64,000 nt of DNA from positions 578,172-642,171 of the forward strand of contig OY970358.1 of the NCBI GenBank assembly GCA_963718575.1, given 5' to 3'. Made by a program: the position numbers and the translations under genes. The stretch comes from an uncultured bacterium. GTDB taxonomy: Bacteria > Patescibacteriota > Minisyncoccia > UBA6257 > 2-01-FULL-56-20. Of the stretch, positions 4,001-48,710 are shown in pieces (within the stretch, counting starts at the first letter, position 1; the number at the start of each line of letters is the position of its first letter). The notes under the pieces were generated by a model. It was not told where the DNA came from. It made no database searches and was given only the letters and a program-made list of their open reading frames with translations.

Positions 4001-4494
4001 CTTAAAAGTCCGTTATTAACGATTTTTTGGAACTCGCTCATATTGTACACGCCGATAAGAGCGCGTTCGGGATTGGCTTGGTCTTTGAGCCATTTCATCG
4101 CGGCAGGTTTGTAGCCGCCTCCGTCTAGTAAGATGATTGTCGGTACGCCGATTTTCATAATGTTAAAAAGCGTAAAGGGATATTTTTCGTCCACGCTTCC
4201 GGCACTCTGTTGCCACTTGCACTCAATAATAAGCCCATCGGGAAACTTCTCTTTGTTAAGGATGAGAAAATCGCACTTGCGCTGGGTTTCGTAGATGCTC
4301 GTACCACACGGCACTTGGGTAGCAAATTGCTTTCCACCTACCGCTTTTCTATTGGCGAACACTTGTTCTTTATGATCCCAAAACCTCTCATATCCCTCGC
4401 GCTTCAATATGTCTTCAATAAAACCCTCAAGGCGATTGCCTGTGTGATTTGCGCGTCCGCCGCCGTTAGGAGTAGTTTCGGATAATAAGCTCAT
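3997..4494 (-). CDS. Putative type II restriction endonuclease, a small PD-(D/E)xK nuclease, probably partner of the Dam-type methyltransferase.
   Basis: The start (MSLLSETTPNGGG) overlaps the methyltransferase stop by about 29 nt. The motif CDFLILN...IIECKWQ fits a D...ExK nuclease core. Confidence 0.45.
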   Translation of the reverse strand: MSLLSETTPNGGGRANHTGNRLEGFIEDILKREGYERFWDHKEQVFANRKAVGGKQFATQVPCGTSIYETQRKCDFLILNKEKFPDGLIIECKWQQSAGSVDEKYPFTLFNIMKIGVPTIILLDGGGYKPAAMKWLKDQANPERALIGVYNMSEFQKIVNNGLLS

Positions 4495-6261: not shown

Positions 6262-6267
6262 ACCTCC

Positions 6268-6296
6268 AGTGTATAGGATCAGAATAGGGTTGTCAA
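6268..6296 (-). promoter_or_regulatory. Sigma70-like promoter TTGACA-17-TACACT, 6 nt upstream of the transposase ATG. Suggests a leaderless transcript.
   Basis: Reverse complement of 6291-6296 is TTGACA. Reverse complement of 6268-6273 is TACACT. Confidence 0.4.
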
Positions 6297-6392
6297 GTCC
6301 GAATTGGGGATAACTAAATGGGGACATAATAGGGCTATTTTTTCCAATCTTGAACTATTGATCGATTTTGATATGTAGTATAATGTAAGCAC

Positions 6393-25900: not shown

Positions 25901-26477
25901 CGATGCGCCGGCGTCGGTGCATTTGGAAAAATGGCCGGAGATAGCGTTCACGTTGCCGGAAAAAGAGCGAGCGGAGCTGATGGACAGCATGACGGAGATC
26001 CGTCGTCTTGCGAGCCTCGGACTTTCTGCCCGTGCGGAGGCAAAGATCAAGGTGCGTCAGCCGCTCGCAACGATGACCGTGCGCGGCGCGGAAGCGACGA
26101 TCCGCGACGAGCGCCTCCTCGCCATATTGAAGAACGAAGTGAATGTGAAAGAGATCGTGTTCGCGCCGGAGCTTGCGAACGAGGTCGAGCTCGACACGGT
26201 CATCACGCCCGCGCTCCGCGAAGAAGGATTGGTCCGCGAAGTGGCCCGCATGTTCCAGGAGCTTCGTCAGAAGGCCGGGCTCGAACCGAAGGATAGGATT
26301 GTTGCGATGATGGAGCTACCAGAAAAGACGATGCAAGTGATCGACAGGAATGAATCTTCATTTTTAAAAGACATCGGTGCGACCGTGGTGGAATTCGGAC
26401 ACTCCGATAAATTCATTGCAGAAGAGATAGCCAAGCTCGAAGGGGAGGATGTATGGGTGGCGGTGCGGAAGGGGTAG
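22913..26477 (+). CDS. ileS: Isoleucyl-tRNA synthetase. It carries an inserted histidine-phosphatase domain and an apparent single-nt frameshift at about 25128-25140.
   Basis: HYGH (HIGH), the CP1 editing region, WKCGDCGH and then DLHRPYIDDITFPCEKCGG. After the frame change the ORF continues as EIFDSW.., MPFAEYHYPFEN and KMSKS (FKMSKSKKNF). Listed as two ORFs, 22913-25360 and 25167-26477. Confidence 0.85.
24437..25050 (+). other. Histidine phosphatase (PGAM-like) domain inserted within IleRS.
   Basis: YWVMRHGEAESN (RHGE), LTPRGKEQ, IDVVIASDITRTQDTEHIV, QPEGGETLRDLRARVWKFL and ILLVTHEYP match the branch-1 histidine phosphatase motif order. Confidence 0.6.
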
Positions 26478-28527: not shown

Positions 28528-29283
28528 ATGTTCACTGACGAAATAAAATTACGCTGGGCGGCGCTTTTAACGAATCCTGATTGGTATCTTGCGATTCTTC
28601 CAGAGTTGGAAGAGTTGCGCAAACAATGGGGTGGAAAGAGTGATGCGGAGCAGGAGCCGCTAAAGATTAAACTCTATGATTTCTTCGCCGAGCATCTTGT
28701 GGCCGGTGATATTGCGCTCGATAACAATCCTGCTAATGCGGACGCGGAGCGCAAGCCCATCGACACTATTATTATCCATCACACAAGCAATCCGCCCGGC
28801 ATGACGAAAGAGTTGCTTTCCGGGATGGAGCTCATTCGCCTTTATGCGCCCGAGTTCGCCGCGCCCAAATATGAGGCTGATAAAAAGATGAAGGGGCGAC
28901 CTATCTGCTCGGGCCATTTTCGCGATGGTCACCAAGTTTTTTGGCCGTATCACTGGTTTGTGCGGCGCGATGGCACCGCCGAGCGTTTATTAAATGATGA
29001 TGAAATTGGTTGGCAAGCTGGAGATTGGGATATCAATTGCCGGAGCGTTGCCATTTGCTTTGATGGCGATTTTGAAAATAGCCGTCCGTCCGATATTGAG
29101 CTTTCCGCGGCGGCAAGTATCATCAAAGATCATTATCCGCAGGTTGCGCGCGAATGCATCTTTGGCCATCGCGAGATTAATTTAAAGACGACCTGTCCGT
29201 CGAATCTATTTCTCTCTGATTCGCCGCGTCGCGGTTGGAAGGACGATTTACTGGAACTTTTATTTCGTAGTAATCCCGCTTAA
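28528..29283 (+). CDS. N-acetylmuramoyl-L-alanine amidase (Amidase_2 / PGRP fold).
   Basis: IIIHHTS, WPYHWFV, NCRSVAICFDGDF and FGHREI..TCPS match the zinc-ligand pattern of AmpD/PGRP amidases. Confidence 0.55.
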   Translation: MFTDEIKLRWAALLTNPDWYLAILPELEELRKQWGGKSDAEQEPLKIKLYDFFAEHLVAGDIALDNNPANADAERKPIDTIIIHHTSNPPGMTKELLSGMELIRLYAPEFAAPKYEADKKMKGRPICSGHFRDGHQVFWPYHWFVRRDGTAERLLNDDEIGWQAGDWDINCRSVAICFDGDFENSRPSDIELSAAASIIKDHYPQVARECIFGHREINLKTTCPSNLFLSDSPRRGWKDDLLELLFRSNPA

Positions 29284-36688: not shown

Positions 36689-39127
36689 ATGCCAGACATG
36701 GAACCGCAGGAAATAACCAAAGAGCTCGGCGATTCGTACCTTAGCTACGCGATGTCGGTCATCGTCGCGCGCGCACTGCCCGACGTCCGCGACGGCATGA
36801 AGCCGGTGCATCGCCGCATCCTTTGGGATATGTGGGACAGCGGCATCATCTCGAGCGCAAAGACGAGGAAATCAGCGAACGTTGTCGGTCAGGTGCTGGC
36901 GCGCTATCACCCGCACGGCGATAGTTCCGTTTATGATGCGATGGTCCGCATGGCGCAGGATTTTTCGTTACGATACCCGCTCATCCATGGGCAAGGAAAC
37001 TTCGGTTCTGTCGATGGAGATTCGGCGGCTGCTTATCGTTATACCGAAGCGAAGCTTTCAAAGATCGCCGGTGAGCTGCTCGTGGATATCGAGAAGGAAA
37101 CCGTGGATTGGATCCCTAACTACGACGGCACGCGCAACGAGCCGACGGTGCTTCCGGCAAAATTACCAAACCTTCTTTTAAATGGCGTCGCTGGCATCGC
37201 CGTTGGTATGGCAACGAGCATCCCGCCTCACAATTTAAATGAAATTTGCGATGCCATTTTGTATTTGGCCGATAACGGCGATACGACAAGTGAGGACCTT
37301 CTGGATTTTGTAAAAGGCCCGGATTTTCCGACCGGCGGCATTATCTATGATGTGAAGGCGATAAAGGAAGCATACGTTTCCGGGCGGGGCGCGGTCATGA
37401 CGCGCGCGAAGGCGGAAATCGTGGAGAAGAAGAACAGCCGCCAGTTCGATATCGTCGTCACGGAGATCCCGTATCAGGTCAATAAATCCGAACTTATAAA
37501 AAATATCGCCGAGCTTGCGCAGGATAAAAAGATCGAGGGCATCCGCGACTTGCGCGACGAGTCCGACCGTGAAGGCATGCGCATCGTGATCGAGCTCAAG
37601 AACGATGTTGCGCCGCAGAAAGTTCTGAACTGGCTCTTTAAGCACACCGAGCTCGAGAAGAACTTCAACTTCAACATGATCGCGCTCGTGAATGGCATCG
37701 AGCCGCGCCTGCTCAACCTCAAGGACATTCTTGCCGAGTACATCGAACACCGAAAGGTGATCGTCGCTCGCCGCACGAAGTTTGATCTTCGCAAAGCGGA
37801 GGAGCGCGCGCATATTCTGGAAGGTCTTATGATCGCGCTCGACGCGATCGACCGTGTGATCGCAACGATCAGGAAGTCCGAAGACAAAGAAGTTGCGCAT
37901 GCGAACCTTATGAAAGGATTTAAATTGAGCGCGCTTCAGGCGACGGCGATTTTGGAAATGCGTTTGCAAACGCTCGCCGCACTTGAGCGGATCAAGATCG
38001 AGTCCGAGCTCAAAGAGAAGCATGATTTGATAAAAGAGCTCATGGCGATATTGAAGAGCCCGGCGCGCATTTTAAAGATCATCAAAGACGAAGTAACCGA
38101 GCTGAAGGAAAAGTATGGCGACGAGCGACGCACGAAAGTGGTATCGCGCGCGGTGGAGTCGGTGAGCGACGAGGACCTGATCCCGGAGGAAGAGGCGATT
38201 GTCACGGTCTCCGGCGGCGGATATATCAAGCGCCTGCCGCCGAGCACGTTCAAAGTGCAACGGCGCGGCGGAAAAGGTTTGATCGGTTCCGAGGTTGCGG
38301 ACGAAGATTTCCTTTCGCATTTCTTCAGCGCAAACACGCACGACAACGTTTTGTTCTTTACCGATCGCGGCCGCGTGTTTCAGACGAAGGTCTACGAGAT
38401 CCCGCAGGCGACGCGAACTTCCAAAGGCAAAGCGATTCAAAACTTCCTCGAGCTTCCCGCCGACGAGAACGTGAGTGCAATCGTCAACTATTCGGCGAAA
38501 GGCGCGAAAGCAGAGGGAAAGACCGGCAGAAAATATCTGATGATGGTCACAAAGCAGGGCCTCATCAAAAAAACGCCGCTCGAAGATTTTGAAAATATTC
38601 GCCGTACCGGCATCATCGCTGTTTCGCTCAAGAAAGGTGATTCCCTCAAGTGGGCAAAGCTCACGACCGGCGCGGAGCAGGTGGTGCTCGCCACGCGGCA
38701 GGGTCAGTCGATCCGTTTTGACGAGAAGCAGGTGCGCCCGATGGGCCGCACTGCCGCAGGCGTCCGCGCGATCAAACTGAAGAAACAGAACGACGAGGTT
38801 GCCGGCTTTGATATAATAAGAGGAGACGACGCGATGCTGCTCGTGGTGATGGAACACGGCTTTGCGAAGCAGACGCAGCTCAAGGAATACAAAGTGCAAA
38901 GCCGCGGCGGATCGGGGATCAAGACGGCCGAGGTGACGCCGAAGACCGGCGCGGTCGTGTCCGCGCATGTGGTCACGGAAGAGAAGGAGATCTTCGCGCT
39001 TTCCGCAAAAGGACAGATGATCCGCACGGAGATTTCCACGGTGCGCACCACCGGCCGCTCGGCGCAAGGCGTGCACATCATGAATCTCAAGCCCGGTGAT
39101 CGCGTAGCGGGAACGGTGGTCATATGA
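36689..39127 (+). CDS. gyrA: DNA gyrase subunit A.
   Basis: [34 protein letters not shown] and the GyrA box QRRGGKG in the C-terminal domain. Confidence 0.9.
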
Positions 39128-39188
39128 CAAACACCTAATCCCTCCGCAATCATGTATAAGAATAAATGCTCGCGGAGGGATTAGGTGT
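39128..39188. repeat. Perfect 20-bp inverted repeat (large hairpin) immediately after gyrA.
   Basis: caaacacctaatccctccgc ...21 nt... gcggagggattaggtgtttg. Confidence 0.7.
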
Positions 39189-39209
39189 TTGTTGCTCGAG
39201 AGTAAAAAA

Positions 39210-40544
39210 ATGCCAAAGAACTTTACGCAAAAACAAATAATAATCATCGGAGGCACCGCTCTCGTGATTATCATCGCTGCGGTTCTCTTTTTGTTGAACA
39301 TTCGCTCGACGCCCGCGTCAGAGCAGACGATCAAAGTCACCATCTGGGGAACGGACAGCCAGCAGGCGTTCGATGACATGATCGGCGCGTACACCGGACC
39401 CGGTTCCGGCACGCAATCAGAGATCAAGTATACGCAGATCGATCCGGCGCAATATCAGAGCAAGCTCCTCGCGGCGCTCGCCGCCGGCACGGGGCCCGAC
39501 ATGTTCGAGATCCCGAACCGCGACCTGCCCCAGCTTGAAAGCGTCGCCGCGCCGCTCCCGGCATCGCTCTCGACGACGTTCAGCCAGGTGACGTTGCAAA
39601 ACGATTTCCCGGACGTTGTCTCACGGGATTTTGTCTCCGGCGGGAATATTTATGCACTTCCGATCTCGATCGACACGCTCGCGATGATCTACAACAAGGA
39701 TCTGTTCAACACCGCCGGCATCGCGACGGTGCCCACAACATGGGAGGAGCTCCAGACGGACTTGCCGAAGCTGCGCGTGGAGAATGCGCAGGGCCAGATC
39801 ACGCAGGCGGCGCTCGCGATGGGTGGTTCCGAAAAGAGCATTGCCGATGCGCCCGATATTATTTTTCTTTTGATGATGCAGAACGGCGCGCAGATGAATT
39901 CCACGGACGGATCGTCGGTGACGTTTGCGACGGGCGGCGGCAATAATGGAACCGGTGGTGGCTCAAGCGACGCCGGCCTCAACGCTTTCAATTATTATCT
40001 GCAGTTCGCGAATGCCGCGGACCCGAACTACACGTGGAGCGACGACATGGGCGATTCGCTCGCGAGCTTCGAGCAGGGAAAGACCGCGGTCATCTTCGAT
40101 TACTCTTCCGCGCTCCCCGCCATCACCGCTGCGGCACCGTTCCTGAACTACGGCGTCGCCGCGATGCCCCAGCCCGCAAACGCGACGGTGGCGGTGAACT
40201 ACGCAAAGTACAACGGTCTTGCGGTCTCGCGCGCCAGCACGCAGATCGCCGGCGCGTGGAACTTCATCATCAATTTGACGACGTCTGCCGCGGATGAGAA
40301 CATATACACGAAGGACACGGGCGCGCCAGGCGCATTGCGGGCGGTGATCGCGGCGGATGAGGCCGATCCCGCGCTTGCGGTCTTCGCCGCGCAGGAGCTC
40401 ACCGCGCAGTCGTGGCACGAGTCGAATAGCGAGACCATCGATTCGATCATGAACACCGCGATAGAGAACGTCCTGAACGGCGCATCCGATTCAACCACCG
40501 CCCTCACCCAGGCGCAGAGCGCGATGAACGCGATAGGGAATTGA
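39210..40544 (+). CDS. ABC transporter substrate-binding protein, family 1 (sugar type), membrane anchored.
   Basis: N-terminal transmembrane anchor, size and overall SBP_bac_1-like pattern. Confidence 0.45.
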   Translation: MPKNFTQKQIIIIGGTALVIIIAAVLFLLNIRSTPASEQTIKVTIWGTDSQQAFDDMIGAYTGPGSGTQSEIKYTQIDPAQYQSKLLAALAAGTGPDMFEIPNRDLPQLESVAAPLPASLSTTFSQVTLQNDFPDVVSRDFVSGGNIYALPISIDTLAMIYNKDLFNTAGIATVPTTWEELQTDLPKLRVENAQGQITQAALAMGGSEKSIADAPDIIFLLMMQNGAQMNSTDGSSVTFATGGGNNGTGGGSSDAGLNAFNYYLQFANAADPNYTWSDDMGDSLASFEQGKTAVIFDYSSALPAITAAAPFLNYGVAAMPQPANATVAVNYAKYNGLAVSRASTQIAGAWNFIINLTTSAADENIYTKDTGAPGALRAVIAADEADPALAVFAAQELTAQSWHESNSETIDSIMNTAIENVLNGASDSTTALTQAQSAMNAIGN

Positions 40545-40569
40545 GGCAGCCGCATACCCACCACAATTC

Positions 40570-41100
40570 ATGAATATAAAAAAAACTGCCGCGAAGCTAC
40601 TGCTGATTCTCCTTATTGGATCTTCTGCGGCGTTGCCGATGGTTTCGTTCGCCGCTCAGAATCAAAGCGGCGGGGCTGTTTCATATTCCGCCCCCTCGCT
40701 TTGGCCCACCGGATTCTGGGGGCCGATAGTATGGTGCACGGGGGACTATCTTTCGGGTACGGGCAATAATCAGATAAACGGTCCCGGCGGCCAGCCGCCC
40801 GCGTGCAGCAATCTCTGTGACCTTGTCGGTACGTTCATCAATATTATTTATCTCGCGATGTCGATCGCAATTTTCATCATTGCGCCGATATCGGTTGCTG
40901 TGGGCGGAATCATGATCATGTTCTCCGGCGCAAACCCCGGGTTGCTCGAGCAGGGAAAGAAAGTCTTGACCGGCGCCGTCATCGGACTTGCGATCGTCCT
41001 GTGCTCGTACCTCATCGTGAACACCGTTTTGTGGGCATTCAATATCACCGCAATCGGAGGATTCAATGGCAACGCGTCCGCCTGTTCGATATCATCATGA
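40570..41100 (+). CDS. TrbC/VirB2-like pilin-topology protein, paralog 1.
   Basis: Signal peptide, then helix FINIIYLAMSIAIFIIAPISVAVGGIMIMF, loop SGANPGLLEQGKK, then helix VIGLAIVLCSYLIVN. Confidence 0.4.
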   Translation: MNIKKTAAKLLLILLIGSSAALPMVSFAAQNQSGGAVSYSAPSLWPTGFWGPIVWCTGDYLSGTGNNQINGPGGQPPACSNLCDLVGTFINIIYLAMSIAIFIIAPISVAVGGIMIMFSGANPGLLEQGKKVLTGAVIGLAIVLCSYLIVNTVLWAFNITAIGGFNGNASACSISS

Positions 41101-41981
41101 GATCTTTATTTAAAAGGAATAAAAACATATTTCTTTTCGTTCTTTCCTTAGCGCTTATTGTTTTTGCTTTACCCCTCGTACTTCCGGCACTATTTTCTCC
41201 TTCCTCCGCATCCGCGCAGACGCAGATTACGATTGCGACGAGCGTCCCCGGTACCTATGGTGCCGCCGCATCGGGGGGTGCGCCCGGAGCATTTGTCGCT
41301 GACTTCTATTGGTTCGCGTTGATCATCGGCGGGGTGATCGCGTTCGGAGTGGTCGTCTACGGCGGAATAAAATACATGACCTCTGCCGGAAATCCTTCCG
41401 GGCAAAGTGATGCAAAAGAATGGATCGAGGCGGCGATTTTGGGAATACTGTTACTTGCGGGCGTTTACTTTATATTGAGCGTCATCAATCCCCAGCTGCT
41501 CAACCTCAACCTGCCGGGACTTACGGCGGTGAATATTTCGAGCATCCCCGTGCCGGGAAATCCCGGTGGTGGTGGCAATAGCCCGACCACTCCGCCAACG
41601 GGTTGCGCGGGTGGAACATGCGTCACGCTTCCGAATTGCACGCAAACAAAAGCGACCACGGGTGCGGGAGCAATCAATTGCGGTGGCACGCCCGCCATCG
41701 CCGCAGTGTTGAATTGCGTCAACCAGGCTGACCCTAATTACACCGTGTCTGAAGGATATCCGCCGGCGGTGGATCATTCCGATCCTGGCCATAACACCGG
41801 ATGTGCGATCGATGTGCATGTAAGCAGTTGCGCCGCTGGCGCGGCATTCATGAGTGCCGCCCAGAGCTGTGGCGCCTCGAAAGTATTAAATGAGTATTCA
41901 AATTGCGGAGGAAATATTTATTCCCATACGACTGGCGGCAATATTCATATCGATGCCCCGAAAGGCCAAGGAGGCTGCTGA
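41097..41981 (+). CDS. Pilin-topology protein (paralog 2) fused to a C-terminal M15/LAS-type zinc peptidase domain.
   Basis: Signal peptide, helix, loop MTSAGNPSGQSDAKEW, helix. A Gly/Pro linker follows. The C-terminal region contains HNTGCAID (H-x6-D) and a later His. ATGA overlap with the previous gene. Confidence 0.4.
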   Translation: MRSLFKRNKNIFLFVLSLALIVFALPLVLPALFSPSSASAQTQITIATSVPGTYGAAASGGAPGAFVADFYWFALIIGGVIAFGVVVYGGIKYMTSAGNPSGQSDAKEWIEAAILGILLLAGVYFILSVINPQLLNLNLPGLTAVNISSIPVPGNPGGGGNSPTTPPTGCAGGTCVTLPNCTQTKATTGAGAINCGGTPAIAAVLNCVNQADPNYTVSEGYPPAVDHSDPGHNTGCAIDVHVSSCAAGAAFMSAAQSCGASKVLNEYSNCGGNIYSHTTGGNIHIDAPKGQGGC

Positions 41982-41990
41982 TATAACCCC

Positions 41991-42512
41991 ATGAAAAAAA
42001 TTTTTATCATCTCTCTGCTCCTCTTTGTTGCCATTCTTGTGGGTATGATTTGCTTCTCTCGGATAAAAATATCTTCGGCTCAGACGGCAACGATAAGTAA
42101 CCCCGTACTTCCCGCAACTTCCATTCCTGATTATTTGGCCAACGCATCTGTAGTTTTTGGTAGTAATCCGACAGGGGCGACGCTCCAAATCGGCACTACA
42201 CAGGGGACGGTGACCATGAATAATTTTTATATCCCCGATCCCGCCGTGGATACGTCGCAATATATCGTCATAAAGTACACCCAAAATTATCTCTTCGATT
42301 ACGATCCGACCGACAGCAGTTTCTGGATCGGCGTGAGTGGGATTCCGTTCAGCGCCTGGCAAAGCACCGCCGAACAGGATTTTTTGACGACACTGGGGAT
42401 AAGCCAAGGAGACGCATGTAAATTGGACGTTGTGGAGGGCGTCATCTACGACCCGCAAAATCCCGACGACGGCCTGTCCTTCCCATTGAGTTTTTGTGAT
42501 ACGACGCAATAA
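41991..42512 (+). CDS. Secreted or membrane-anchored hypothetical protein inside the pilin-like array.
   Basis: ORF track. N-terminal hydrophobic helix. Confidence 0.4.
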   Translation: MKKIFIISLLLFVAILVGMICFSRIKISSAQTATISNPVLPATSIPDYLANASVVFGSNPTGATLQIGTTQGTVTMNNFYIPDPAVDTSQYIVIKYTQNYLFDYDPTDSSFWIGVSGIPFSAWQSTAEQDFLTTLGISQGDACKLDVVEGVIYDPQNPDDGLSFPLSFCDTTQ

Positions 42513-42539
42513 GCGTCCGGATTTGGTATAATGAATTCC

Positions 42540-42899
42540 ATGATCAAGACGGTGAGAAAAAATGGGGTGATAGGAGGAACTGCCTTATACTCATTGTTCA
42601 TTTCCGGGATTGCTCATGCGCAATCCCAGTCCATCACGCTTACTGACCCGCTTGGGGGAAATGAGACGTTTTTGAGCGTAGCAACCGCCGTGGGGGGGTT
42701 CATTTTTTGGGACATTGCCATGCCATTTTCAATTATTATGGTGCTCGTCGGTGCGTTTCAATTGATGACATCAGCTGGCGAGCCGGAAAAGGTTTCTCAA
42801 GGCAGGAAGACGATCATGTATGCAGCGATCGGATTTGCCATTGCGCTCATTGCCGGCGGTATTACCAATATCATTAAAAGCTTCATCGGCGTCTCGTAA
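42540..42899 (+). CDS. TrbC/VirB2-like pilin-topology protein, paralog 3.
   Basis: Signal peptide (...GIAHA), helix, loop LMTSAGEPEKVSQGRKT, helix IMYAAIGFAIALIAGG. Extended -10 TGgTATAAT lies 7 nt upstream of the ATG. Confidence 0.45.
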   Translation: MIKTVRKNGVIGGTALYSLFISGIAHAQSQSITLTDPLGGNETFLSVATAVGGFIFWDIAMPFSIIMVLVGAFQLMTSAGEPEKVSQGRKTIMYAAIGFAIALIAGGITNIIKSFIGVS

Positions 42900-42973
42900 T
42901 TGGCTTTTAAATGAAAATATGGGATACTAAGCATAATAAATGGTCGAAATAAAACGTTAAATTTCCATTTGTC

Positions 42974-43387
42974 ATGAAGAAAATGAAAATGTGGCTGACG
43001 GAGCATCCTCTTTCAAAGATATTAGGGGCGCTTTCCCTGAATCTTCTGTTTGTTCGGTTTGCCAACGCGCAAACGTTGCCGCCACCGCCGTCTCCTGTTC
43101 AGAACAGTACGGGGCTCATGAACGTTCTTTGTTCTTTCATCGCCTATTTCTTCTGGATAGTGATTATCATCTCGGTCATTTTTGTCCTTTATGCAGCGTT
43201 TTCCTATGTGACTGCAGGTGATGATACAGAAAAGACTACAAAAGCTCGCAAGACGCTCACCTATGCGGCTATTGGCATTGCGGTGGCACTCCTTGCCACT
43301 ACATTTCCGACGATCGTTGGAAGTATCTTCCCGAATGCGACACTATCACTGAGCCCTGGCCAAGTCTGCACCGTCTTCGGCGGCTAA
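42974..43387 (+). CDS. TrbC/VirB2-like pilin-topology protein, paralog 4.
   Basis: Signal peptide, helix FIAYFFWIVIIISVIFVLYAAF, loop TAGDDTEKTTKARKT, helix LTYAAIGIAVALLA. Confidence 0.45.
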   Translation: MKKMKMWLTEHPLSKILGALSLNLLFVRFANAQTLPPPPSPVQNSTGLMNVLCSFIAYFFWIVIIISVIFVLYAAFSYVTAGDDTEKTTKARKTLTYAAIGIAVALLATTFPTIVGSIFPNATLSLSPGQVCTVFGG

Positions 43388-43469
43388 GGTTGTCACGATG
43401 GGGCGGGTGTGATATCTTAAAACAGTACCTTAGAAAGGTCGAATACCTCTATAAAATCCATTTAACGTC

Positions 43470-43862
43470 ATGAAAAAAGTAATCAATTTTGCAAAGGAAT
43501 TCAGCCCGTCGATCATCGCGTTGGTCATCCCCGCGATGGCATTCGCGCAGAACCTTCCTCAGCCGGTTCCGCCGTCTGGAGTGAATGTCCCTCAGGGGAA
43601 CATCACAAGCCTGCAGTCGGTGCTTCAGCTCCTCTGCACGGTCTTCGCATGGGCATTCTATTTCCTCATTGTGATCGCCGTCATCTTCGTCATTGTCGCG
43701 GCCTTCCGCTACCTCACTGCAGCCGGTGAGCCGGAGAAGGTGAAGGAAGCGGGAAACACGTTGCTCTATGCCGCGGTCGCGATCGGCGTCGCATTGTTGG
43801 CTCGTGCCGTCCCGCTCGTCATCGGAAGCTTCCTCGGCGCAAGCGGAGTGAGTTCGTGTTAG
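43470..43862 (+). CDS. TrbC/VirB2-like pilin-topology protein, paralog 5.
   Basis: Signal peptide, helix, loop LTAAGEPEKVKEAGNT, helix LLYAAVAIGVALLA. Confidence 0.45.
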   Translation: MKKVINFAKEFSPSIIALVIPAMAFAQNLPQPVPPSGVNVPQGNITSLQSVLQLLCTVFAWAFYFLIVIAVIFVIVAAFRYLTAAGEPEKVKEAGNTLLYAAVAIGVALLARAVPLVIGSFLGASGVSSC

Positions 43863-43886
43863 TGGAAAGTTAAACAGAAATATGCA

Positions 43887-43920
43887 AAAGGCCCCCGACA
43901 AGGGGTCTTTTGTTTTTTGC
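43887..43920 (+). terminator. Rho-independent terminator ending the pilin-like array.
   Basis: GGCCCCC gacaa GGGGTC followed by TTTTGTTTTTTG. Confidence 0.6.
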
Positions 43921-44005
43921 GCAGCAAGAAACTTTATCGAGAATTTTAAAAGATAAAAAAATCCCCCAGAGCCGAAGCTGCCGGGGGATAATGTACTACA
44001 AGGTG

Positions 44006-45130
44006 CTAGTTGATGTCGACCGGAATGTTTTGGAAGGAATACGCATGTGAGCGGGCATCCTCTCCTATCACATTGAGAGTGAAGGCAAGTTTCGTAGCTC
44101 CGGAGGTCCTACGAAATCTGAAAACAAAACCATTCTTGCTTCCGGGGATGAGCTTCCGGGCATTCCCTCCCCTCAGAAATTGGATCGATCCGTTGGAATC
44201 CCAGACATTAAATCCAACGCCGCGGTCATCTACGCCGGCACTGTCGCCAATGTAGACCAATGGGTTTTCCGACCCATCTTTGTTATTTTGGATGTATCCT
44301 TCGCAGTCAATCTCGTCTGATGCGATATACTTCGCAGCATACATCCGAATACGAAACGTTCCTTCATCGCCGGACATCGGCATGATTTCAATCCGTGGCG
44401 AGAGAGCCAGAAGATGCTTTTCCTGGGGGTCCGTTGTCGGTCGTGCCGTAGCCAGTGGTTGTTCGGTGTGCAGCGGATTACCTGTGTATGCAGGGCGAGC
44501 CGCGGAAGGTTTTCCTTGAAACGCCTTATCGGTTTGGTTCCCGTTGGATTGTGCAAATACATTCTTGAGGTGAAGATTTTTTCTCCCTCCCAAGCAACAT
44601 ATCAGCATAATTACACAGCCCAGTGCAACGAGCGCTCGAACGGTTTTTTTACTGGTTTCAACGAAGCAGAAAATTGCTGCGACGATGGGAACAAGCAGAA
44701 AAGCAAGGCGGCGATCGTTTGCGACTGGCACCAGGCTAAGAATAATGCCCGCGACCAGTTCGAGACCAAGGATGAATCGGATGATATTCGTTGCCCTCCG
44801 AGCCTCGGCGACGAATTTTCCAAGAAGTCGATTACTCTTTGAAAACGCTACTTCTCCGACCAGGACTGAAAGTGGGCCGAGGCCGGTGATAAGCCAGAGG
44901 AAGATAAGAAGGGGAACAATGGTTGCGATGGGTACCGCGTATTGCGCAAATTTGTACCCTGGCATTGCAGCGAGCAGTAAGACGAATGGCCATATGAAGG
45001 CCAGCCTTGCCGCAGTTCTGAGGCGTCGCATGACGATCCGAATTGCTCGGATGGTCTGACCGCCGACCACTCTGATGAGTTCGGCGGCAAGCTCGCCCAT
45101 ATCATTGAACATTCCGAACAACTCGTTCAT
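44006..45130 (-). CDS. Multi-pass membrane protein with a C-terminal soluble domain. Hypothetical.
   Basis: ORF track. Five or six hydrophobic segments. A minus-strand terminator (ATCCCCC...GGGGGAT plus T-tract) lies downstream at about 43958-43995. Confidence 0.45.
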   Translation of the reverse strand: MNELFGMFNDMGELAAELIRVVGGQTIRAIRIVMRRLRTAARLAFIWPFVLLLAAMPGYKFAQYAVPIATIVPLLIFLWLITGLGPLSVLVGEVAFSKSNRLLGKFVAEARRATNIIRFILGLELVAGIILSLVPVANDRRLAFLLVPIVAAIFCFVETSKKTVRALVALGCVIMLICCLGGRKNLHLKNVFAQSNGNQTDKAFQGKPSAARPAYTGNPLHTEQPLATARPTTDPQEKHLLALSPRIEIMPMSGDEGTFRIRMYAAKYIASDEIDCEGYIQNNKDGSENPLVYIGDSAGVDDRGVGFNVWDSNGSIQFLRGGNARKLIPGSKNGFVFRFRRTSGATKLAFTLNVIGEDARSHAYSFQNIPVDIN

Positions 45131-45735
45131 GAGATCCTCCTAAGTGCGTCGGTAAGACTGCGGATGGATGGGCGAACCATGCCTGCTGCAGTGTTGATGT
45201 TTATAGCAACTCTTTTGAGAGAAGCTTCAACGGTTTCGCGTATCGCGCGGAGGTCATCGTCAATGATGTTTTCTCCTGCTCTCATCCGTTCGGCGATCTT
45301 GATCACATATTGCATCGCGTTATCGTGCCGCAGGATACCCATTGTGGCGATGAATTCCTCGTACGTTGGGAGACTTCCAAGTCCTCGAAGTACTGTTGTT
45401 CTTGGACCTTGTTGGAGTTGGTTGAGGAGATTTACGATGTCCCCCTCGGTGATGATCCCAGTGGCCGTCTCGCATTCTGCGCGAATAAGCCATTGACGGA
45501 TGTTCTCCGCCGCCGCGCTATCTTTCGCGTCCGCAGAGAGTCGCATAGCCATAAGATCGCGCATGAGCGCCGGCCGTCCGGTGTCGCTGACGAGGTCTTT
45601 TGCCTTTTTTACCACTGCGGTCTGGACGTGATTCCTCAGCGCCTCGATGAGTGAGTTGAAACCTACGGTTCCAGCAACACCAGCGAGCGCGCTGAAAATC
45701 ACTTCCCACATCGTTTTTTCCTTCTCATCGGCCAT
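45127..45735 (-). CDS. Hypothetical soluble protein, co-operonic with 44006-45130 through an ATGA overlap.
   Basis: ORF track. Confidence 0.45.
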   Translation of the reverse strand: MADEKEKTMWEVIFSALAGVAGTVGFNSLIEALRNHVQTAVVKKAKDLVSDTGRPALMRDLMAMRLSADAKDSAAAENIRQWLIRAECETATGIITEGDIVNLLNQLQQGPRTTVLRGLGSLPTYEEFIATMGILRHDNAMQYVIKIAERMRAGENIIDDDLRAIRETVEASLKRVAININTAAGMVRPSIRSLTDALRRIS

Positions 45736-45887
45736 GGCGGCCTCCTTTTCTGGTGATCTGGATCTGTTTTTTTTGTTAAATTGTTGCGCTTGCTACTAGG
45801 AATATTCTAGCATTATATTATATATTTGTCAAATAACATAAAAGCCCAGTTTTATGGGCTTTTATGGCACGCGCCTACTTAATACTT

Positions 45888-46190
45888 TTATATCCCCCTC
45901 TTTATCCTCTCCAATTCTGCCTGTTTTTCACCCTCTTTTTTAAAGGTTGACATAGTGTGGGCGGTTTTCAACCCCTCGTTCTTCAACGCGGCAATTAGCG
46001 CAGAGCCATCGGCCTGCTTGGTAATAGCTTCTTCCACAAAAGCAGCGATAATCGCATTTTTACTCTCCTCGGGAAATTCCTTAAGGTGTTCAAGCAGAAA
46101 CTTGCGCGCCTTTTCTTCGTCGCCCTTGTCGATAATGGCGAAAAACTGATCTATGAGGTGTGCCGGTATTGTATTGTCCATAACTATCAA
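45888..46190 (-). CDS. Hypothetical protein.
   Basis: ORF track. Overlaps the stop of the upstream ORF by 4 nt. Confidence 0.4.
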   Translation of the reverse strand: MIVMDNTIPAHLIDQFFAIIDKGDEEKARKFLLEHLKEFPEESKNAIIAAFVEEAITKQADGSALIAALKNEGLKTAHTMSTFKKEGEKQAELERIKRGI

Positions 46191-47260
46191 CTCTTCATAA
46201 TTTGCTCAATCTTTGAAGAAAAAAGAGAAGCGAGGATGGATGCCCAAAACCCCTTCTTGCCTTTCAGTTTATCCTGTGTGTACGCTTTAGAAAATCCGTG
46301 CAGGGCCTCATCGTCGTTCATCTCTTGGTGGCCCCTCCGATATACATCGAATGCGCTATTTAATTCCTCCTTGCTGGCTTTTGTTTGTAGTATTGAATTT
46401 CGTACCTCTTTCATTTCTGCAAAGGACATATTTGGCTCCGATTTCTCGGGGCTATCCTTCTTAAGATCTGCGACTAAGGATTCTTTAATTAAAGGATTCT
46501 CCATCATGGTAAGTTGAAGGAGTGAGCCGACGTCTTTCATATCGGCCTCATAACGCTCCCAATATTCTTCAATATCTCGCGCATTATCAAGAGATTGTTG
46601 ATGGACTTCATTCTCTTGCTTCTTTCTGCGCGTGGCTATTTTTTGCCAAAGACTATATTGGCTGCGGGCTAGCTTGACGATCTTCTCCGGATCGCCGGTT
46701 TGTAATAATTCGAGGTATTCACCCTCCGCAATGCCGTTTTCCTTACACCATTTTTTTATATCCTCATCTTCTTCGTCCAGCTTTTTCTTGCTCTCTGCCA
46801 TTTGCTGGAGGGCATCTTCAAGATCAATGAACCGCTGGCGCTCGGTTATGGCCGCGCGCGGAAGGTGTTTGGAGAGCGCGGCTTTGATCCCGTCACGACC
46901 GACCATCCCGGCAATCGTTTGCAGTTCCGGCGATGATGCTACGAGTTTTGTGAGGGTATTCGCATCGAGAGATTCTGTGATTGATTTAGATCGGTCGAGG
47001 ATTTCAAGAAACCCCTTCCTTTTCTCTTCAAGTGCTGCAAAATCGTTGCTATCGACCTCAAGCCTGGGTCCGGCGAGTTTGCTCCCAAGATCTTTTACTC
47101 CCTCTGTCTCGAGATATTCTCCAAAAAGATCCTGCTGTTCCTTGTTTGCAAGGATTTCCTTTAGGGTCGGCCCTTCAATCTCTTTTTTGGATTCATCTTT
47201 TTCCCCAAAATTCTCACGCCGATCTTTCTGGTGTTGTGCGTACTTTTCCGTAATGGACAT
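46187..47260 (-). CDS. Acidic, Lys/Glu-rich hypothetical protein.
   Basis: ORF track. Confidence 0.45.
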   Translation of the reverse strand: MSITEKYAQHQKDRRENFGEKDESKKEIEGPTLKEILANKEQQDLFGEYLETEGVKDLGSKLAGPRLEVDSNDFAALEEKRKGFLEILDRSKSITESLDANTLTKLVASSPELQTIAGMVGRDGIKAALSKHLPRAAITERQRFIDLEDALQQMAESKKKLDEEDEDIKKWCKENGIAEGEYLELLQTGDPEKIVKLARSQYSLWQKIATRRKKQENEVHQQSLDNARDIEEYWERYEADMKDVGSLLQLTMMENPLIKESLVADLKKDSPEKSEPNMSFAEMKEVRNSILQTKASKEELNSAFDVYRRGHQEMNDDEALHGFSKAYTQDKLKGKKGFWASILASLFSSKIEQIMKS

Positions 47261-47337
47261 TACGATTAATATATAGATATATTCCGCTTTTGTCCAATTT
47301 CTCCAAAAGGTATTATGATGGAGGGGTTATAGTTAGC

Positions 47338-47418
47338 GCCCAGGTGGTGAAATGGCATACACGTCAGCTTTAGGAGCTGATGCCGAAAGGCGTGGAGGTT
47401 CAAGTCCTCTCCTGGGCA
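47338..47418 (+). tRNA. tRNA-Leu (anticodon TAG) with a long variable arm.
   Basis: GCCCAGG...TCAGC TTTAGGA GCTGA...TGCCGAAAGGCGT...GGAGGTTCAAGTCCTCT CCTGGGC A. Confidence 0.75.
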
Positions 47419-47438
47419 CACTTTACAACGATATTTCT

Positions 47439-47702
47439 ATGGGTTATAATATTGCTAGTGATGTTGGGAGATACATCTCAACACTTACAGAAGGGAAGTG
47501 TGATATGGGTTTAGATGTGAACAGTAAACAAGTACCGGTAGTAACCGTGAACTTCCCGCCTATGCCAATTTTTTCGGACTTTAAACAAATTGGACCTGAC
47601 GGAGAGCCTTTGATATTACTTCAGAACATCAATTACTCTAAGGCGCTTGAGGCGTGGAAGGAGGCTTGCGCAACAATGTCGCGGGCTATCAATCTTAAGT
47701 AA
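47439..47702 (+). CDS. Small hypothetical protein downstream of tRNA-Leu.
   Basis: The ORF-track ORF 47352-47702 overlaps the tRNA. The internal Met at 47439 was taken as the start. Confidence 0.25.
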   Translation: MGYNIASDVGRYISTLTEGKCDMGLDVNSKQVPVVTVNFPPMPIFSDFKQIGPDGEPLILLQNINYSKALEAWKEACATMSRAINLK

Positions 47703-47786: not shown

Positions 47787-48710
47787 CTATCCCTCCTCTT
47801 TCCTCCTCGCTCCATGGAATGCCTTGTGCACATCCCGCAACTGATTGTTGGTGAGGTGCGTGTAGACTTGCGTCGTTGAGATATTCGCATGGCCGAGGAG
47901 CTCCTGCACGGAGCGGATATCTGCGCCGTTTACGAGGAGATCGGTAGCGAAGCTATGGCGCAGAAGATGCGCGTGGATGTGATTGGGAATGCCGGCTTGC
48001 GTGGCGCGCGCGGCGACGAGGCGCTGGACGGCGCGTGGGGTGATGGGGCCGATCACTTTGCCCACGCGATCGAGGCTGACGAATAACTTCTCTTCCGCGT
48101 CGCCGCGTCGCGCCATGTAAGCTTTGACCGCATCGCGCGCGGAGTCGGAGATGAACACGACGCGCAGCTTATCTCCCTTGCCGCGCACAGAGAGCTCGCC
48201 GCGTTTGAGATCGATGCCGCGCGGGAGCGCGCAAAGCTCGGCCAATCGCAGTCCGGTGGAGAAGAACATCTCTAAAATGGCTTTGTCGCGCAGATCGCGG
48301 AGCGAGTCGCCCTTCGGCGCGGCGAGCAGGCGCTCGAGGTCGCCGTACTCGAGCGTATCGATCTGCCGCCCCGGCACTTTGGGCAGCTCAATCTTGTCCG
48401 CCGATAAAGTTTTAATATCCCGCTTCGCCATATATTTCAAAAAGTTGCGCAGGGCGATCGCGTAATATCCCTGCGTCACGCGCTTCATGTCGCGCCGCGC
48501 GAGCGCCACGCGAAACTCGCGCACCACATCATCCGTGATCTCGGCAGGGGAGGAGATCTTTGCAAACTTCAAAAATTCCAAGATATAATGTTTATAGTTC
48601 TCGCTCGTCCGCGGTGACCGGTTTTTTTCGATCTCGAGGTAATTCAAATAATCCTGGAGCAAGCGTTCGATTTCGGTGCGCGGTTTTTCTTTTTTTGTTT
48701 CTGCCATCAT
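47787..48710 (-). CDS. Tyrosine recombinase of the XerC/XerD family.
   Basis: C-terminal HLLRHSFATDLLVNGADIRSVQELLGHANISTTQVYTH (R..HxxR..Y) plus an N-terminal core-binding domain. Confidence 0.8.
   Translation of the reverse strand: MMAETKKEKPRTEIERLLQDYLNYLEIEKNRSPRTSENYKHYILEFLKFAKISSPAEITDDVVREFRVALARRDMKRVTQGYYAIALRNFLKYMAKRDIKTLSADKIELPKVPGRQIDTLEYGDLERLLAAPKGDSLRDLRDKAILEMFFSTGLRLAELCALPRGIDLKRGELSVRGKGDKLRVVFISDSARDAVKAYMARRGDAEEKLFVSLDRVGKVIGPITPRAVQRLVAARATQAGIPNHIHAHLLRHSFATDLLVNGADIRSVQELLGHANISTTQVYTHLTNNQLRDVHKAFHGARRKEEG

What the first reader, a model, noticed from the sequence alone, without database searches (positions are those of the whole stretch)
40570..43920. Tandem array of five paralogous genes with the TrbC/VirB2 pilin topology. 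Candidate surface filament or T4SS-like pilin locus.
All five genes are co-directional and the array is closed by one strong terminator. Each protein has an N-terminal signal peptide, a variable segment of 40-70 aa, a long hydrophobic helix, a short polar loop with a shared (T/S)(A/S)AG(N/E/D)P...K motif, and a second hydrophobic helix (AAIGxAxALxA). This is the hallmark layout of conjugative T-pilins (TrbC/VirB2). No VirB4, VirD4 or relaxase genes lie in the window, so the array may serve a non-conjugative surface or attachment structure. One unrelated secreted protein (41991-42512) is interleaved.
Basis: partly seen in the sequence, partly recalled or inferred. Interest (0 to 1): 0.8.

Follow-up and report, generated by a model that had tools for sequence, protein, structure and literature searches.

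The report
VirB2-like pilin operon of a Patescibacterium
This is a real, conserved operon of five different VirB2-like pilin genes in an ultrasmall (CPR/Patescibacteria) bacterium, a kind of array already described in the literature, with the added twist that one pilin carries a Hedgehog-like zinc peptidase domain that probably cuts cell wall.

Summary
Five co-directional genes (40570-43862) plus one interleaved gene end at a strong terminator (43884-43913). All five match Pfam PF18895 T4SS_pilin; three are above the curated cut-off and two just below. The window is chromosomal DNA of a Paceibacteria-class Patescibacterium, and arrays of 2-11 divergent VirB2-like pilins in this phylum have been published (PMC10633639, PMC12102498).

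What I add:
- The gene order W1-W2-Wx-W3-W4-W5 is conserved by position in about 40 related species. It always lies between gyrA plus a solute-binding-protein gene and xer/pnp. The array is therefore an old, differentiated operon and not a recent amplification. The "unrelated" interleaved gene is a fixed member.
- Pilin 2 carries a disulfide-rich C-terminal domain with the Hedgehog/DD-peptidase (LAS) fold and invariant H, D, E, H residues. It is found almost only fused to such pilins.
- Orthologues carry a lysozyme-like SLT_3 domain at the same place, which points to peptidoglycan as the target.

No VirB4, VirD4 or relaxase gene lies in the window. Whether the rest of the genome has one could not be tested.

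Verdict: new member of a known kind, moderate interest.

The parts
39127..39192 (+). Strong RNA hairpin (22-bp stem) between the gyrA stop and the start of the solute-binding-protein gene. It is a possible boundary or regulatory element of the transcription unit. No T run follows, so it is not a canonical terminator.
   Evidence: Inverted repeat I1, 31-nt arms, 90% complementary. RNA fold -43.4 kcal/mol, z = -8.0 against 200 shuffles. Sequence.
39210..40544 (+). Orphan extracellular solute-binding protein gene (SBP_bac_1, N-terminal membrane anchor), 25 bp upstream of W1. No permease gene is adjacent. It is a conserved neighbour and a possible first gene of the operon.
   Evidence: Pfam SBP_bac_1 E 3.3e-29. 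Public gene calls give 444 aa. It lies directly upstream of W1 in 35 related loci at 36-80% identity. No terminator-like site was found between it and W1.
40570..41100 (+). W1: VirB2-like pilin paralogue. It has the longest N-terminal mature segment (about 55 aa, Cys-containing) and a short C-terminal tail ending in Cys.
   Evidence: PF18895 E 1e-4, 22.7 bits (below the 26.6 cut-off); PF04956 TrbC E 0.019. Topology. Positional orthologues in about 35 loci score 66-241 bits, against 30-46 bits to the paralogues.
41097..41981 (+). W2: a fusion protein. It consists of a signal peptide, a VirB2-like two-helix pilin module (aa 63-135, nt 41283-41501), a Pro/Gly-rich linker (aa about 139-167), and a C-terminal ten-cysteine domain of Hedgehog/DD-peptidase (LAS) fold (aa 168-294, nt 41598-41978). 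The domain has invariant H232, D239, E266 and H284.
41991..42512 (+). Wx: a conserved non-pilin member of the operon. It has an N-terminal signal or anchor helix and a compact alpha/beta domain of about 120 aa with two invariant Cys (C143, C169). Its function is unknown.
42531..42899 (+). W3: small VirB2-like pilin paralogue. This class usually lacks the Cys pair.
   Evidence: PF18895 E 9.9e-8, 32.4 bits. NCBIfam NF045849 E 9.7e-8, below cut-off. Positional orthologues. Cys statistics.
42974..43387 (+). W4: small VirB2-like pilin paralogue with a Cys at the start of helix 1 and a Cys in the C-terminal tail.
   Evidence: PF18895 E 5.6e-9, 36.4 bits. 74-bp spacer upstream. The number of W4/W5-class genes varies from 2 to 6 among loci.
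43470..43862 (+). W5: the last and most conserved pilin (45-88% identity across species). It has a Cys pair (C56, C130). It is the candidate major subunit, by inference only.
   Evidence: PF18895 E 5.5e-9. 265 homologues, all with PF18895. A promoter-like site lies at 43390-43418 with a TG extension. Orthologues in 50 genomes.
43884..43920 (+). Intrinsic terminator closing the array: GC-rich 12-bp stem, 6-nt loop, T run.
   Evidence: the best terminator-like site in 39000-45500. Sequence.

Best explanation
The locus is the pilin operon of the type IV secretion-like machine of a Paceibacteria-class Patescibacterium (genome under 1 Mb).

Shown here:
- Five ancient, functionally differentiated paralogues of the T4SS_pilin (VirB2-like) family, plus one conserved secreted accessory protein, are encoded in a fixed order.
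- Each pilin has a Sec-type leader ending in A-x-A|Q and a two-helix hydrophobic hairpin with a short charged loop.
- One pilin (W2) is fused through a flexible Pro/Gly linker to a disulfide-rich zinc-peptidase-type domain of the Hedgehog/DD-peptidase (LAS) fold.
- Orthologues of W2 carry other cell-wall-hydrolase-type domains at the same place.

Inferred mechanism:
- The subunits are exported and processed by signal peptidase.
- They park as hairpins in the cytoplasmic membrane.
- A VirB4-driven, MPF_FATA-derived T4SS encoded elsewhere in the genome extracts and polymerises them into a VirB2-type filament.
- W5 is the bulk subunit. W1, W3 and W4 are minor or initiating subunits.
- W2 places a peptidoglycan-cutting enzyme on or next to the filament. 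There it either opens the bacterium's own wall for the filament (the VirB1 role) or attacks the wall of the host cell on which these epibionts live.
- In W1, W4 and W5 a conserved Cys pair probably staples the start of helix 1 to the C-terminal tail.
For: Family membership:
- PF18895 hits for all five genes.
- Profile-profile match to annotated plasmid VirB2/TrbC, well above reversed and shuffled controls.
- The A-x-A|Q motif is shared with canonical VirB2.
- Weak hits to the pilin-like conjugal transfer protein of Mycoplasma ICEs, NF045849.

Organism and context:
- Homologues are named Paceibacterota, Minisyncoccia or Parcubacteria.
- Window genes are housekeeping: gyrA, pnp, recA, ftsK, aminoacyl-tRNA synthetases.

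Old, differentiated operon:
- The order W1-W2-Wx-W3-W4(n)-W5 holds in about 40 of 50 species-level genomes.
- Each position matches its positional orthologue 2-6 times better than any paralogue.
- There are no DNA repeats between paralogues.

W2 enzyme domain:
- hhalign prob 94% to ShhN. It aligns H232 and D239 with the H and D of Shh's HYEGRAVD motif (residues 140/147 of the human sequence used). By my recollection these are zinc ligands. It aligns E266 with the E of YYESK (176), the proposed catalytic Glu.
- These three residues, plus H284, which lies beyond the aligned segment, are invariant in 57 diverse members.
- Ten conserved Cys fit an extracellular domain.
- The domain occurs in only 63 representative clusters of 1.84 billion. 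52 of the 57 scanned carry the pilin module.

Peptidoglycan as target:
- 16 of 35 W2 orthologues have a Pfam SLT_3 lysozyme-like domain instead.
- Others show VanY-like, M15-like or CHAP-like motifs.

Literature:
- VirB2-like pilin arrays are essential for epibiotic growth of Southlakia epibionticum (PMC10633639).
- 441 such arrays are reported in Patescibacteria, and VirB4 is present in 2,417 of 3,035 assemblies (PMC12102498).

Cys pair: both Cys present in 122, both absent in 5, and one alone in 1, of 128 W4/W5-class pilins.
Against: - No VirB4, VirB6, VirB3 or VirD4 gene lies in the window, and I found none in the large ORFs sampled from 7 of the 50 related loci. The assembly machine is assumed, not seen.
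- No pilus made of these proteins has been seen in any Patescibacterium. The 2025 review speaks only of a 'potential to elaborate conjugative pili'.
- W1 and W2 fall just below the Pfam cut-off. The direct PF04956 hits are insignificant. A PDB sequence-profile search found no VirB2 or TraA. The helical-hairpin fold match is non-specific: the A. pernix conjugative pilin ranks only 50th, among designed helical bundles.
- For the W2 domain, Foldseek against the PDB gave nothing significant and no Pfam peptidase family is hit.
- Hedgehog itself is used as a ligand, so the domain could bind rather than cut.
- Which subunit is major, and where W2 sits, are inferences without data.
Confidence: 0.6

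Rival explanations
1. The array is a variation device. The paralogues are interchangeable major pilins that are switched or mixed to adapt to different host strains or to evade recognition. This was proposed for Patescibacteria arrays by analogy with Bartonella and Anaplasma VirB2 paralogues.
For: PMC12102498 makes this suggestion. Identity within the array is low. The number of W4/W5-class genes varies from 2 to 6 among related genomes, so that part of the array does expand and contract.
Against: Positions W1, W2, Wx, W3 and the terminal W5 are kept as distinct orthologous groups across about 40 species. That is the signature of division of labour, not of interchangeable copies. There are no repeats, inverted repeats or recombinase sites between paralogues that could drive switching. 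W5 is highly conserved, up to 88-92% identity between species-level clusters. W2 carries an enzyme domain.
Confidence: 0.15
2. No filament is made. The two-helix modules are simply membrane anchors or small membrane proteins. W2 is a membrane-tethered cell-wall hydrolase used in the cell's own wall growth or division, and the small paralogues are partners or regulators in the membrane.
For: Before assembly, VirB2-type pilins are ordinary two-helix membrane proteins. No T4SS gene is nearby. The locus sits among housekeeping genes, including gyrA, xer, ftsK and an Amidase_2 gene in the window. The fold match of the hairpin is non-specific. No Patescibacteria T4SS pilus has been imaged.
Against: The family is specifically related to VirB2/TrbC by profile comparison and to a Mycoplasma ICE pilin-like protein. 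In other Patescibacteria the same family lies inside the T4SS cluster and is essential together with it. Five differentiated copies plus a conserved Cys staple are hard to explain for plain anchors.
Confidence: 0.2
3. The genes encode small secreted or membrane toxins with immunity proteins, of the bacteriocin type. This is the alternative the first reader named as a refutation.
For: The proteins are small, have leaders and hydrophobic helices, and the genes are tandem. There is no other support.
Against: No match to any bacteriocin or immunity family in Pfam or NCBIfam. All five belong to one pilin family. The operon is conserved in strict synteny in a core chromosomal position across a bacterial class, unlike mobile toxin loci. 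No processing or export ABC transporter is adjacent.
Confidence: 0.03

Closest known systems
VirB2-like pilin arrays of the Patescibacteria T4SS: Southlakia epibionticum SEML1_0006-0019 (Wang et al. 2023, PMC10633639) and 441 arrays in 383 assemblies (Quinonero-Coronel et al. 2025, PMC12102498)
   Same: Same phylum and same Pfam family (PF18895). [quoted passage not shown] They are chromosomal and have no relaxase nearby.
   Different: Here the array is unlinked from virB4 and lies at a fixed gyrA-SBP...xer-pnp position in a Paceibacteria lineage. The published arrays were reported as most abundant in Microgenomatia and Saccharimonadia, and the studied one lies inside the T4SS cluster. Positional orthology of five classes, the fixed accessory gene Wx, the pilin-hydrolase fusion and the Cys pair are not described in the papers I could read.
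Classical TrbC/VirB2 conjugative pilins (Pfam PF04956: Agrobacterium VirB2, RP4 TrbC)
   Same: Long leader cleaved at A-x-A|Q, two hydrophobic helices with a short loop, and an in-register profile-profile match. A cell-wall hydrolase is genetically coupled to the pilin: virB1 lies directly upstream of virB2 in all eight plasmid loci fetched.
   Different: PF04956 is not matched at threshold. The loop is 7 residues longer. The host is a monoderm. There are five paralogues instead of one. The hydrolase is fused to a pilin module instead of being a separate VirB1. A Cys pair is present, whereas T-pilin and TrbC are known to be head-to-tail cyclised (from my own knowledge; not tested here).
Mbov_0395 / MMCAP2_0565 family of pilin-like conjugal transfer proteins of Mycoplasma ICEs (NCBIfam NF045849)
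   Same: This is the best named NCBIfam match of W3, W4 and W5 (E 7e-8 to 2.5e-6), covering both helices. It is a monoderm, MPF_FATA-type system, the class from which Patescibacteria VirB4 is said to derive.
   Different: Scores (27-32 bits) are below the family cut-off of 40, so these are not members. The Mycoplasma proteins belong to mobile conjugative elements with a relaxase.
Hedgehog/DD-peptidase (LAS) zinc peptidases: Hedgehog N-terminal domain, and VanX/VanY/M15 cell-wall peptidases
   Different: No Pfam family is hit and Foldseek found nothing. The domain has ten conserved Cys. It is restricted to about 63 representative clusters and almost always fused to a T4SS_pilin module. Activity and substrate are untested.

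Membership tests
Pfam PF18895 T4SS_pilin | Score at or above the curated gathering cut-off (26.6 bits) | tested here: met
   W3 32.4, W4 36.4 and W5 36.4 bits are above the cut-off. W1 (22.7) and W2 (25.7) are just below it but are the top hits. Orthologues of W2 in other genomes pass, with PF18895 precomputed for most.
TrbC/VirB2 pilins (Pfam PF04956) | Significant match to the TrbC/VirB2 profile | tested here: not met
   W1 has E 0.019 (15.6 bits) and W3 has E 0.016 (15.9 bits), against a cut-off of 27.9. The other three have no hit.
TrbC/VirB2 pilins (superfamily level) | Profile-profile similarity over both helices, in register | tested here: met
   hhalign A5 vs A6: 63 columns, score 28.6, E 8e-5, probability 61%. 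Reversed template 11.5. 30 column shuffles 9.2 +/- 1.6, max 14.9. Support is moderate: the probability is only 61% and the proteins are hydrophobic.
TrbC/VirB2 pilins (superfamily level) | Leader peptide ending in A-x-A followed by Gln, then two hydrophobic helices and a short loop | tested here: met
   The motif and hydropathy pattern are present in all five. A45, A47 and Q48 are invariant in 8 annotated VirB2/TrbC proteins. Cleavage itself was not tested.
TrbC/VirB2 pilins (superfamily level) | Genetic linkage to VirB4, VirB3 and VirB6, or their presence in the genome | tested here: not met
   None was found among the 30 largest window ORFs or in the 10 large ORFs sampled from 7 of the 50 related loci. 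The rest of the 881,652-bp genome could not be read with these tools, so presence elsewhere is not testable here.
TrbC/VirB2 pilins (superfamily level) | Polymerises into an extracellular filament | not testable with these tools
   This needs cryo-ET, surface shearing or multimer modelling. It has not been shown for any Patescibacterium.
Patescibacteria VirB2 pilin arrays (PMC12102498) | Two to eleven PF18895/PF04956 genes in tandem or separated by one non-pilin gene, with low mutual identity, in a Patescibacteria genome | tested here: met
   Five genes with one interleaved gene. Identity 19-40%. Taxon names.
Hedgehog/DD-peptidase (LAS) zinc peptidases (W2 C-terminal domain) | Characteristic alpha/beta fold | tested here: met
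Hedgehog/DD-peptidase (LAS) zinc peptidases (W2 C-terminal domain) | Metal ligands H-x(6)-D and a distal H, plus a catalytic Glu | tested here: met
   H232, D239, E266 and H284 are invariant in 57 diverse sequences. hhalign (prob 94%, E 1.2e-7) places H232, D239 and E266 on the Shh residues of HYEGRAVD and YYES. The assignment of those Shh residues as ligands and catalytic Glu rests on my knowledge of the Shh literature.
Hedgehog/DD-peptidase (LAS) zinc peptidases (W2 C-terminal domain) | Match to a curated family (HH_signal, VanY, Peptidase_M15_x) | tested here: not met
   The isolated domain has no Pfam hit at E <= 10 and no NCBIfam hit.
Hedgehog/DD-peptidase (LAS) zinc peptidases (W2 C-terminal domain) | Zinc-dependent cleavage of peptidoglycan peptides | not testable with these tools
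   This needs a biochemical assay.

The most novel reading that the evidence does not exclude
In this Paceibacteria lineage the VirB2-like filament may be a cell-wall-breaching tool. One dedicated pilin paralogue (W2) carries an exchangeable peptidoglycan-cutting head: a Hedgehog-like zinc peptidase, an SLT_3 lysozyme-like domain, or VanY-, M15- or CHAP-like domains in different species. It would be incorporated at the filament tip to open the wall of the host cell, so that the T4SS-like machine can take up or deliver molecules. The Hedgehog-like head would then be an undescribed bacterial branch of the Hedgehog/DD-peptidase superfamily that exists almost only as a pilin fusion. The Cys pair of the small pilins would be a disulfide substitute for the head-to-tail cyclisation of T-pilin.
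Probability: 0.25. Interest if true: 0.7.

Novelty: new member of a known kind. Interest (0 to 1): 0.4.

Why it matters
Patescibacteria make up a large share of uncultivated bacterial diversity and live attached to host cells. Their T4SS-like machine and its pilin array are essential for that lifestyle in the one species tested, yet what the pilins build and do is unknown.

This locus gives three testable handles:
- In Paceibacteria the array is a fixed six-gene operon with five non-interchangeable pilin classes. This argues for a composite structure rather than antigenic variation.
- One pilin class is a carrier for interchangeable cell-wall hydrolase domains. This may explain why separate VirB1 homologues are rarely found in the phylum, and it names a concrete enzyme to assay.
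- The weak but specific similarity to a Mycoplasma ICE pilin-like protein suggests the pilin may have come with the monoderm-type T4SS rather than being borrowed from a diderm system.

None of this changes the basic classification, which is already in the literature.

Tried and rejected
1. VirB4 elsewhere in the source genome.
- The pilins are on record on an 881,652-bp contig. The look-up tool returned only shorter metagenome contigs with the same neighbourhood.
- A look-up with my ORF for the tRNA synthetase failed because the gene call differs.
No Patescibacteria VirB4 sequence was available as a query, so the question stays open.

2. Large ORFs near the array in relatives. Ten sampled large ORFs from 7 of the 50 related loci were checked. 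They are FtsH, an ABC transporter, an H+-pyrophosphatase, a methylase, or have no hit. None is VirB4.

3. PDB searches.
- A sequence-profile search with 88 pilin cores gave only designed helical proteins, all insignificant.

4. The isolated W2 domain. phmmer against the PDB gave only chance hits, with E about 0.8.

6. Recombination or shufflon-type repeats between paralogues. None were found.

7. Genomic island reading (tRNA-Leu plus integrase downstream). Rejected for the array itself.
- The integrase is a conserved Xer-type gene present in 26 related loci.
- The array is syntenic across the lineage.
- Only the four hypothetical minus-strand genes between W5 and the tRNA are variable.

8. A first classification of the W2 tails was contaminated by the shared linker: two loci scored as both types. 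It was redone after trimming.

9. The M15-like and CHAP-like readings of eight other W2 tails rest on motifs only. Pfam gave at best weak VanY hits.

Full report

Yes. The ORF list and the sequence show five + strand genes:

| Gene | Coordinates | Length |
|---|---|---|
| W1 | 40570-41100 | 176 aa |
| W2 | 41097-41981 | 294 aa (ATG overlaps the W1 stop as ATGA) |
| W3 | 42531-42899 | 122 aa |
| W4 | 42974-43387 | 137 aa |
| W5 | 43470-43862 | 130 aa |

- A sixth gene, Wx (41991-42512, 173 aa), lies between W2 and W3.
- Public gene calls on six independent metagenome contigs carrying identical proteins give the same gene set.
- The strongest terminator-like site in 39000-45500 is 43884-43913, a 12-bp stem followed by a T run, directly after W5.
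- Each of the five has an N-terminal hydrophobic leader ending in small-x-small before an invariant Gln. Two long hydrophobic segments follow, separated by a 12-14-residue polar loop.
- An HMM of the two-helix core finds exactly these five genes in the 64-kb window.
The mature N-terminal segment is short (15-25 aa) except in W1. W2 has a large C-terminal domain. The interleaved gene is a conserved member.

**2. What family are the proteins?**

- All five have Pfam PF18895 'Type IV secretion system pilin' as top hit, with E from 1e-4 to 5.5e-9. W3-W5 are above the gathering cut-off; W1 and W2 are 1-4 bits below it.
- PF04956 (TrbC/VirB2) is hit only at E about 0.02.
- To test the link to classical pilins, I recovered eight annotated VirB2/TrbC genes from conjugative MPF_T plasmids and aligned them (A6). 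I compared that profile with a profile of 88 pilin cores from this lineage (A5).
- hhalign aligns 63 columns in register (helix 1, loop, helix 2) with score 28.6, E 8e-5 and probability 61%. The reversed template scores 11.5. Thirty column shuffles score 9.2 +/- 1.6, with a maximum of 14.9.
- The canonical proteins also have an invariant A-x-A-Q at the leader cleavage site, as do the five proteins here.
- NCBIfam gives sub-threshold but specific hits of W3-W5 to NF045849, the Mbov_0395 pilin-like conjugal transfer protein of Mycoplasma ICEs.
- A sequence-profile search of the PDB found no pilin. The hairpin's structural matches are non-specific.
- Conclusion: the proteins are members of PF18895 and distant relatives of VirB2/TrbC.

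**3. Organism and context.**

- Homologues are named Candidatus Paceibacterota, Minisyncoccia or Parcubacteria. The longest contig carrying the identical proteins is 881,652 bp.
- The window is ordinary chromosome. It carries gyrA, two solute-binding-protein genes, ArgRS, IleRS, TrpRS/TyrRS-type synthetase, RNase J, a Xer-type recombinase, S15, PNPase, RecA, FtsK and others.
- None of the 30 largest ORFs is a VirB4, VirD4 or relaxase.

**4. Comparative anatomy.**

- A scan of one genome per species with an alignment of W5 orthologues returned 50 loci, all Patescibacteria. The core HMM and BLASTP against the six window proteins show the order W1-W2-Wx-W3-W4(n)-W5 in about 40 of them.
- Each position matches its positional counterpart far better than any paralogue. 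For example, W1 scores 66-241 bits to W1, against 30-46 bits to the next class.
- Only the W4/W5-like class varies in number, from 2 to 6.
- The solute-binding-protein gene lies directly upstream in 35 loci and gyrA in 33. The Xer gene, NYN gene, pnp and recA lie downstream in 15-27 loci. The four hypothetical minus-strand genes at 44006-47260 are poorly conserved.
- There are no DNA repeats between paralogues.
- The array is therefore an ancient operon with five differentiated pilin classes and a fixed accessory gene. It is not a recent amplification or a mobile island.
- I found no VirB4-like ATPase among the large ORFs I sampled from these loci (10 ORFs from 7 loci).

**5. The W2 fusion.**

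- Full-length homologues of W2 share a C-terminal region with ten conserved Cys and conserved His, Asp and Glu residues.
- The AlphaFold2 model has a confident helical hairpin (aa 63-130), a disordered Pro/Gly linker (aa 139-167) and a confident alpha/beta domain with pLDDT mostly above 80.
- Searched alone against 1.84 billion representatives, the domain occurs in only 63 clusters, always C-terminal. 52 of the 57 scanned carry PF18895 at the N-terminus. H232, D239, E266 and H284 are invariant across all 57.
- A profile of the domain aligns with human ShhN, whose sequence I verified as identical to PDB 6e1h_C. Probability is 94%, E 1.2e-7 and score 47.1; controls score about 11.
- The alignment superposes VTEaYPP..H....H-N-G-c-x-V-D and NEY on Shh [24 protein letters not shown] and YYES. 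These are the residues that, by my knowledge of Shh, bind zinc and act as the catalytic Glu (residue numbers).
- The domain is therefore an uncurated branch of the Hedgehog/DD-peptidase (LAS) superfamily with an intact active site.

**6. Exchangeable heads.**

- In 16 of 35 W2 orthologues the C-terminal domain is instead a Pfam SLT_3 (PF18896) lysozyme-like domain. Eleven have the Hedgehog-like type.
- Eight others show, at motif level only, M15-like (HxxGYKAD...HWD), VanY-like (weak Pfam E 3e-4 and 7e-3) or CHAP/NlpC-like (C...GHVGI) signatures.
- Unrelated wall-hydrolase domains at one fixed position point to peptidoglycan as the substrate.
- In classical systems the lytic transglycosylase VirB1 is encoded directly upstream of virB2. 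Here the same pairing appears as a fusion. The 2025 survey found few VirB1 homologues and does not mention such fusions.

**7. Other features.**

- In W4/W5-class pilins, a Cys at the start of helix 1 and a Cys in the C-terminal tail are both present in 122 and both absent in 5 of 128. Only one has a single Cys. This suggests a disulfide that closes the hairpin.
- Spacers are 25 nt (SBP-W1), an overlap of 4 nt (W1-W2), 9 nt, 18 nt, 74 nt and 82 nt.
- A promoter-like site with a TG extension precedes W5. W5 is the most conserved paralogue. I therefore propose it as the major subunit, by inference only.

**8. Comparison with what is known.**

- Wang et al. [quoted passage not shown]
- Quinonero-Coronel et al. 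2025 (PMC12102498) report the following. VirB4 is present in 2,417 of 3,035 Patescibacteria assemblies. VirB2-like pilins occur in 1,948 VirB4-positive assemblies, near virB4 in 1,135 of them. There are 441 arrays of 2-11 pilin genes with about 25% identity, sometimes interrupted by a non-pilin gene.
- A 2025 review calls these systems unique among monoderms for their potential to make conjugative-type pili (PMC12857230).

**9. Mechanism and confidence.**

Most likely (about 0.6) this is the filament-subunit operon of the organism's T4SS-like machine, with a pilin-borne wall hydrolase.

- Steps shown: family membership, topology, operon conservation, and the enzyme fold with its active-site residues.
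- Steps inferred: processing, assembly by a distant VirB4 system, the roles of the individual paralogues, and the substrate and placement of W2.

Rivals are pilin variation (0.15), non-filament membrane proteins with a tethered autolysin (0.2) and bacteriocin-like peptides (0.03).

**10. Verdict.**

Interest is moderate (0.4). It is raised above routine by the conserved six-gene architecture and by the pilin-Hedgehog-like peptidase fusion, which I did not find described.

Noticed in passing
window 39127-39192: A very stable hairpin (22-bp stem, -43 kcal/mol, z = -8) lies exactly between the gyrA stop and the start of the solute-binding-protein gene. No T run follows, so it is not a canonical terminator. 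It has no Rfam match.
   Followed up: partly
window 39210-40544: An SBP_bac_1 solute-binding-protein gene with no adjacent ABC permease is conserved directly upstream of the pilin operon in 35 related genomes, only 25 nt from W1. It may belong to the operon, for example as a ligand-binding partner of the filament.
   Followed up: partly
window 22913-26477: The IleRS-type gene appears split. ORF 22913-25360 holds the first part of the catalytic domain fused to a histidine-phosphatase (His_Phos_1) domain. The overlapping ORF 25167-26477 holds the rest of the catalytic domain plus the anticodon-binding domain.
   Followed up: no
window 1120-1240: LOOT RNA (Rfam RF03000), 92 bits against a gathering score of 46.
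   Followed up: no
window 4466-6327 (- strand): An IS1595-family transposase (5344-6327) lies next to a D12-class N6-adenine DNA methyltransferase (4466-5347). This is mobile or restriction-modification-like content in an otherwise housekeeping region.
   Followed up: no
window 44006-47702: Four hypothetical minus-strand genes without any family hit (one has about six predicted membrane helices) lie between the pilin terminator and tRNA-Leu(TAG) at 47338-47419. They are poorly conserved among relatives, whereas the flanking Xer-type recombinase (47787-48710) is conserved but truncated in one metagenome variant.
   Followed up: partly
L016, L027, L033, L036, L039, L041, L054, L057 (W2 orthologues): The C-terminal heads of the second pilin differ again in these genomes. 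Their motifs resemble M15 peptidases (HxxGYKAD...HWD), VanY (weak Pfam hits) or CHAP/NlpC-P60 (C...GHVGI). This suggests at least four or five interchangeable wall-hydrolase modules on one pilin scaffold.
   Followed up: partly
W4/W5-class pilins in window and L013-L062: A Cys at the start of helix 1 and a Cys in the C-terminal tail co-occur: both in 122, neither in 5, one alone in 1, of 128. W3-class pilins mostly lack them. This is a possible disulfide staple of the hairpin.
   Followed up: partly
L037 / L059 (same MAG, DATAXS01) and L051 / L054 (same MAG, JAGWKM01): Besides the array, these genomes carry a solitary W5-like pilin gene elsewhere. In L051 it lies next to parA/parB-like genes. 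In L059 it lies near a CBM30+CHAP protein and a PG_binding_1 protein. No VirB4 lies within 10 kb.
   Followed up: partly
window 28528-29283: A separate N-acetylmuramoyl-L-alanine amidase (Amidase_2) gene is present in the window, so the genome has further wall hydrolases unlinked to the pilin operon.
   Followed up: no
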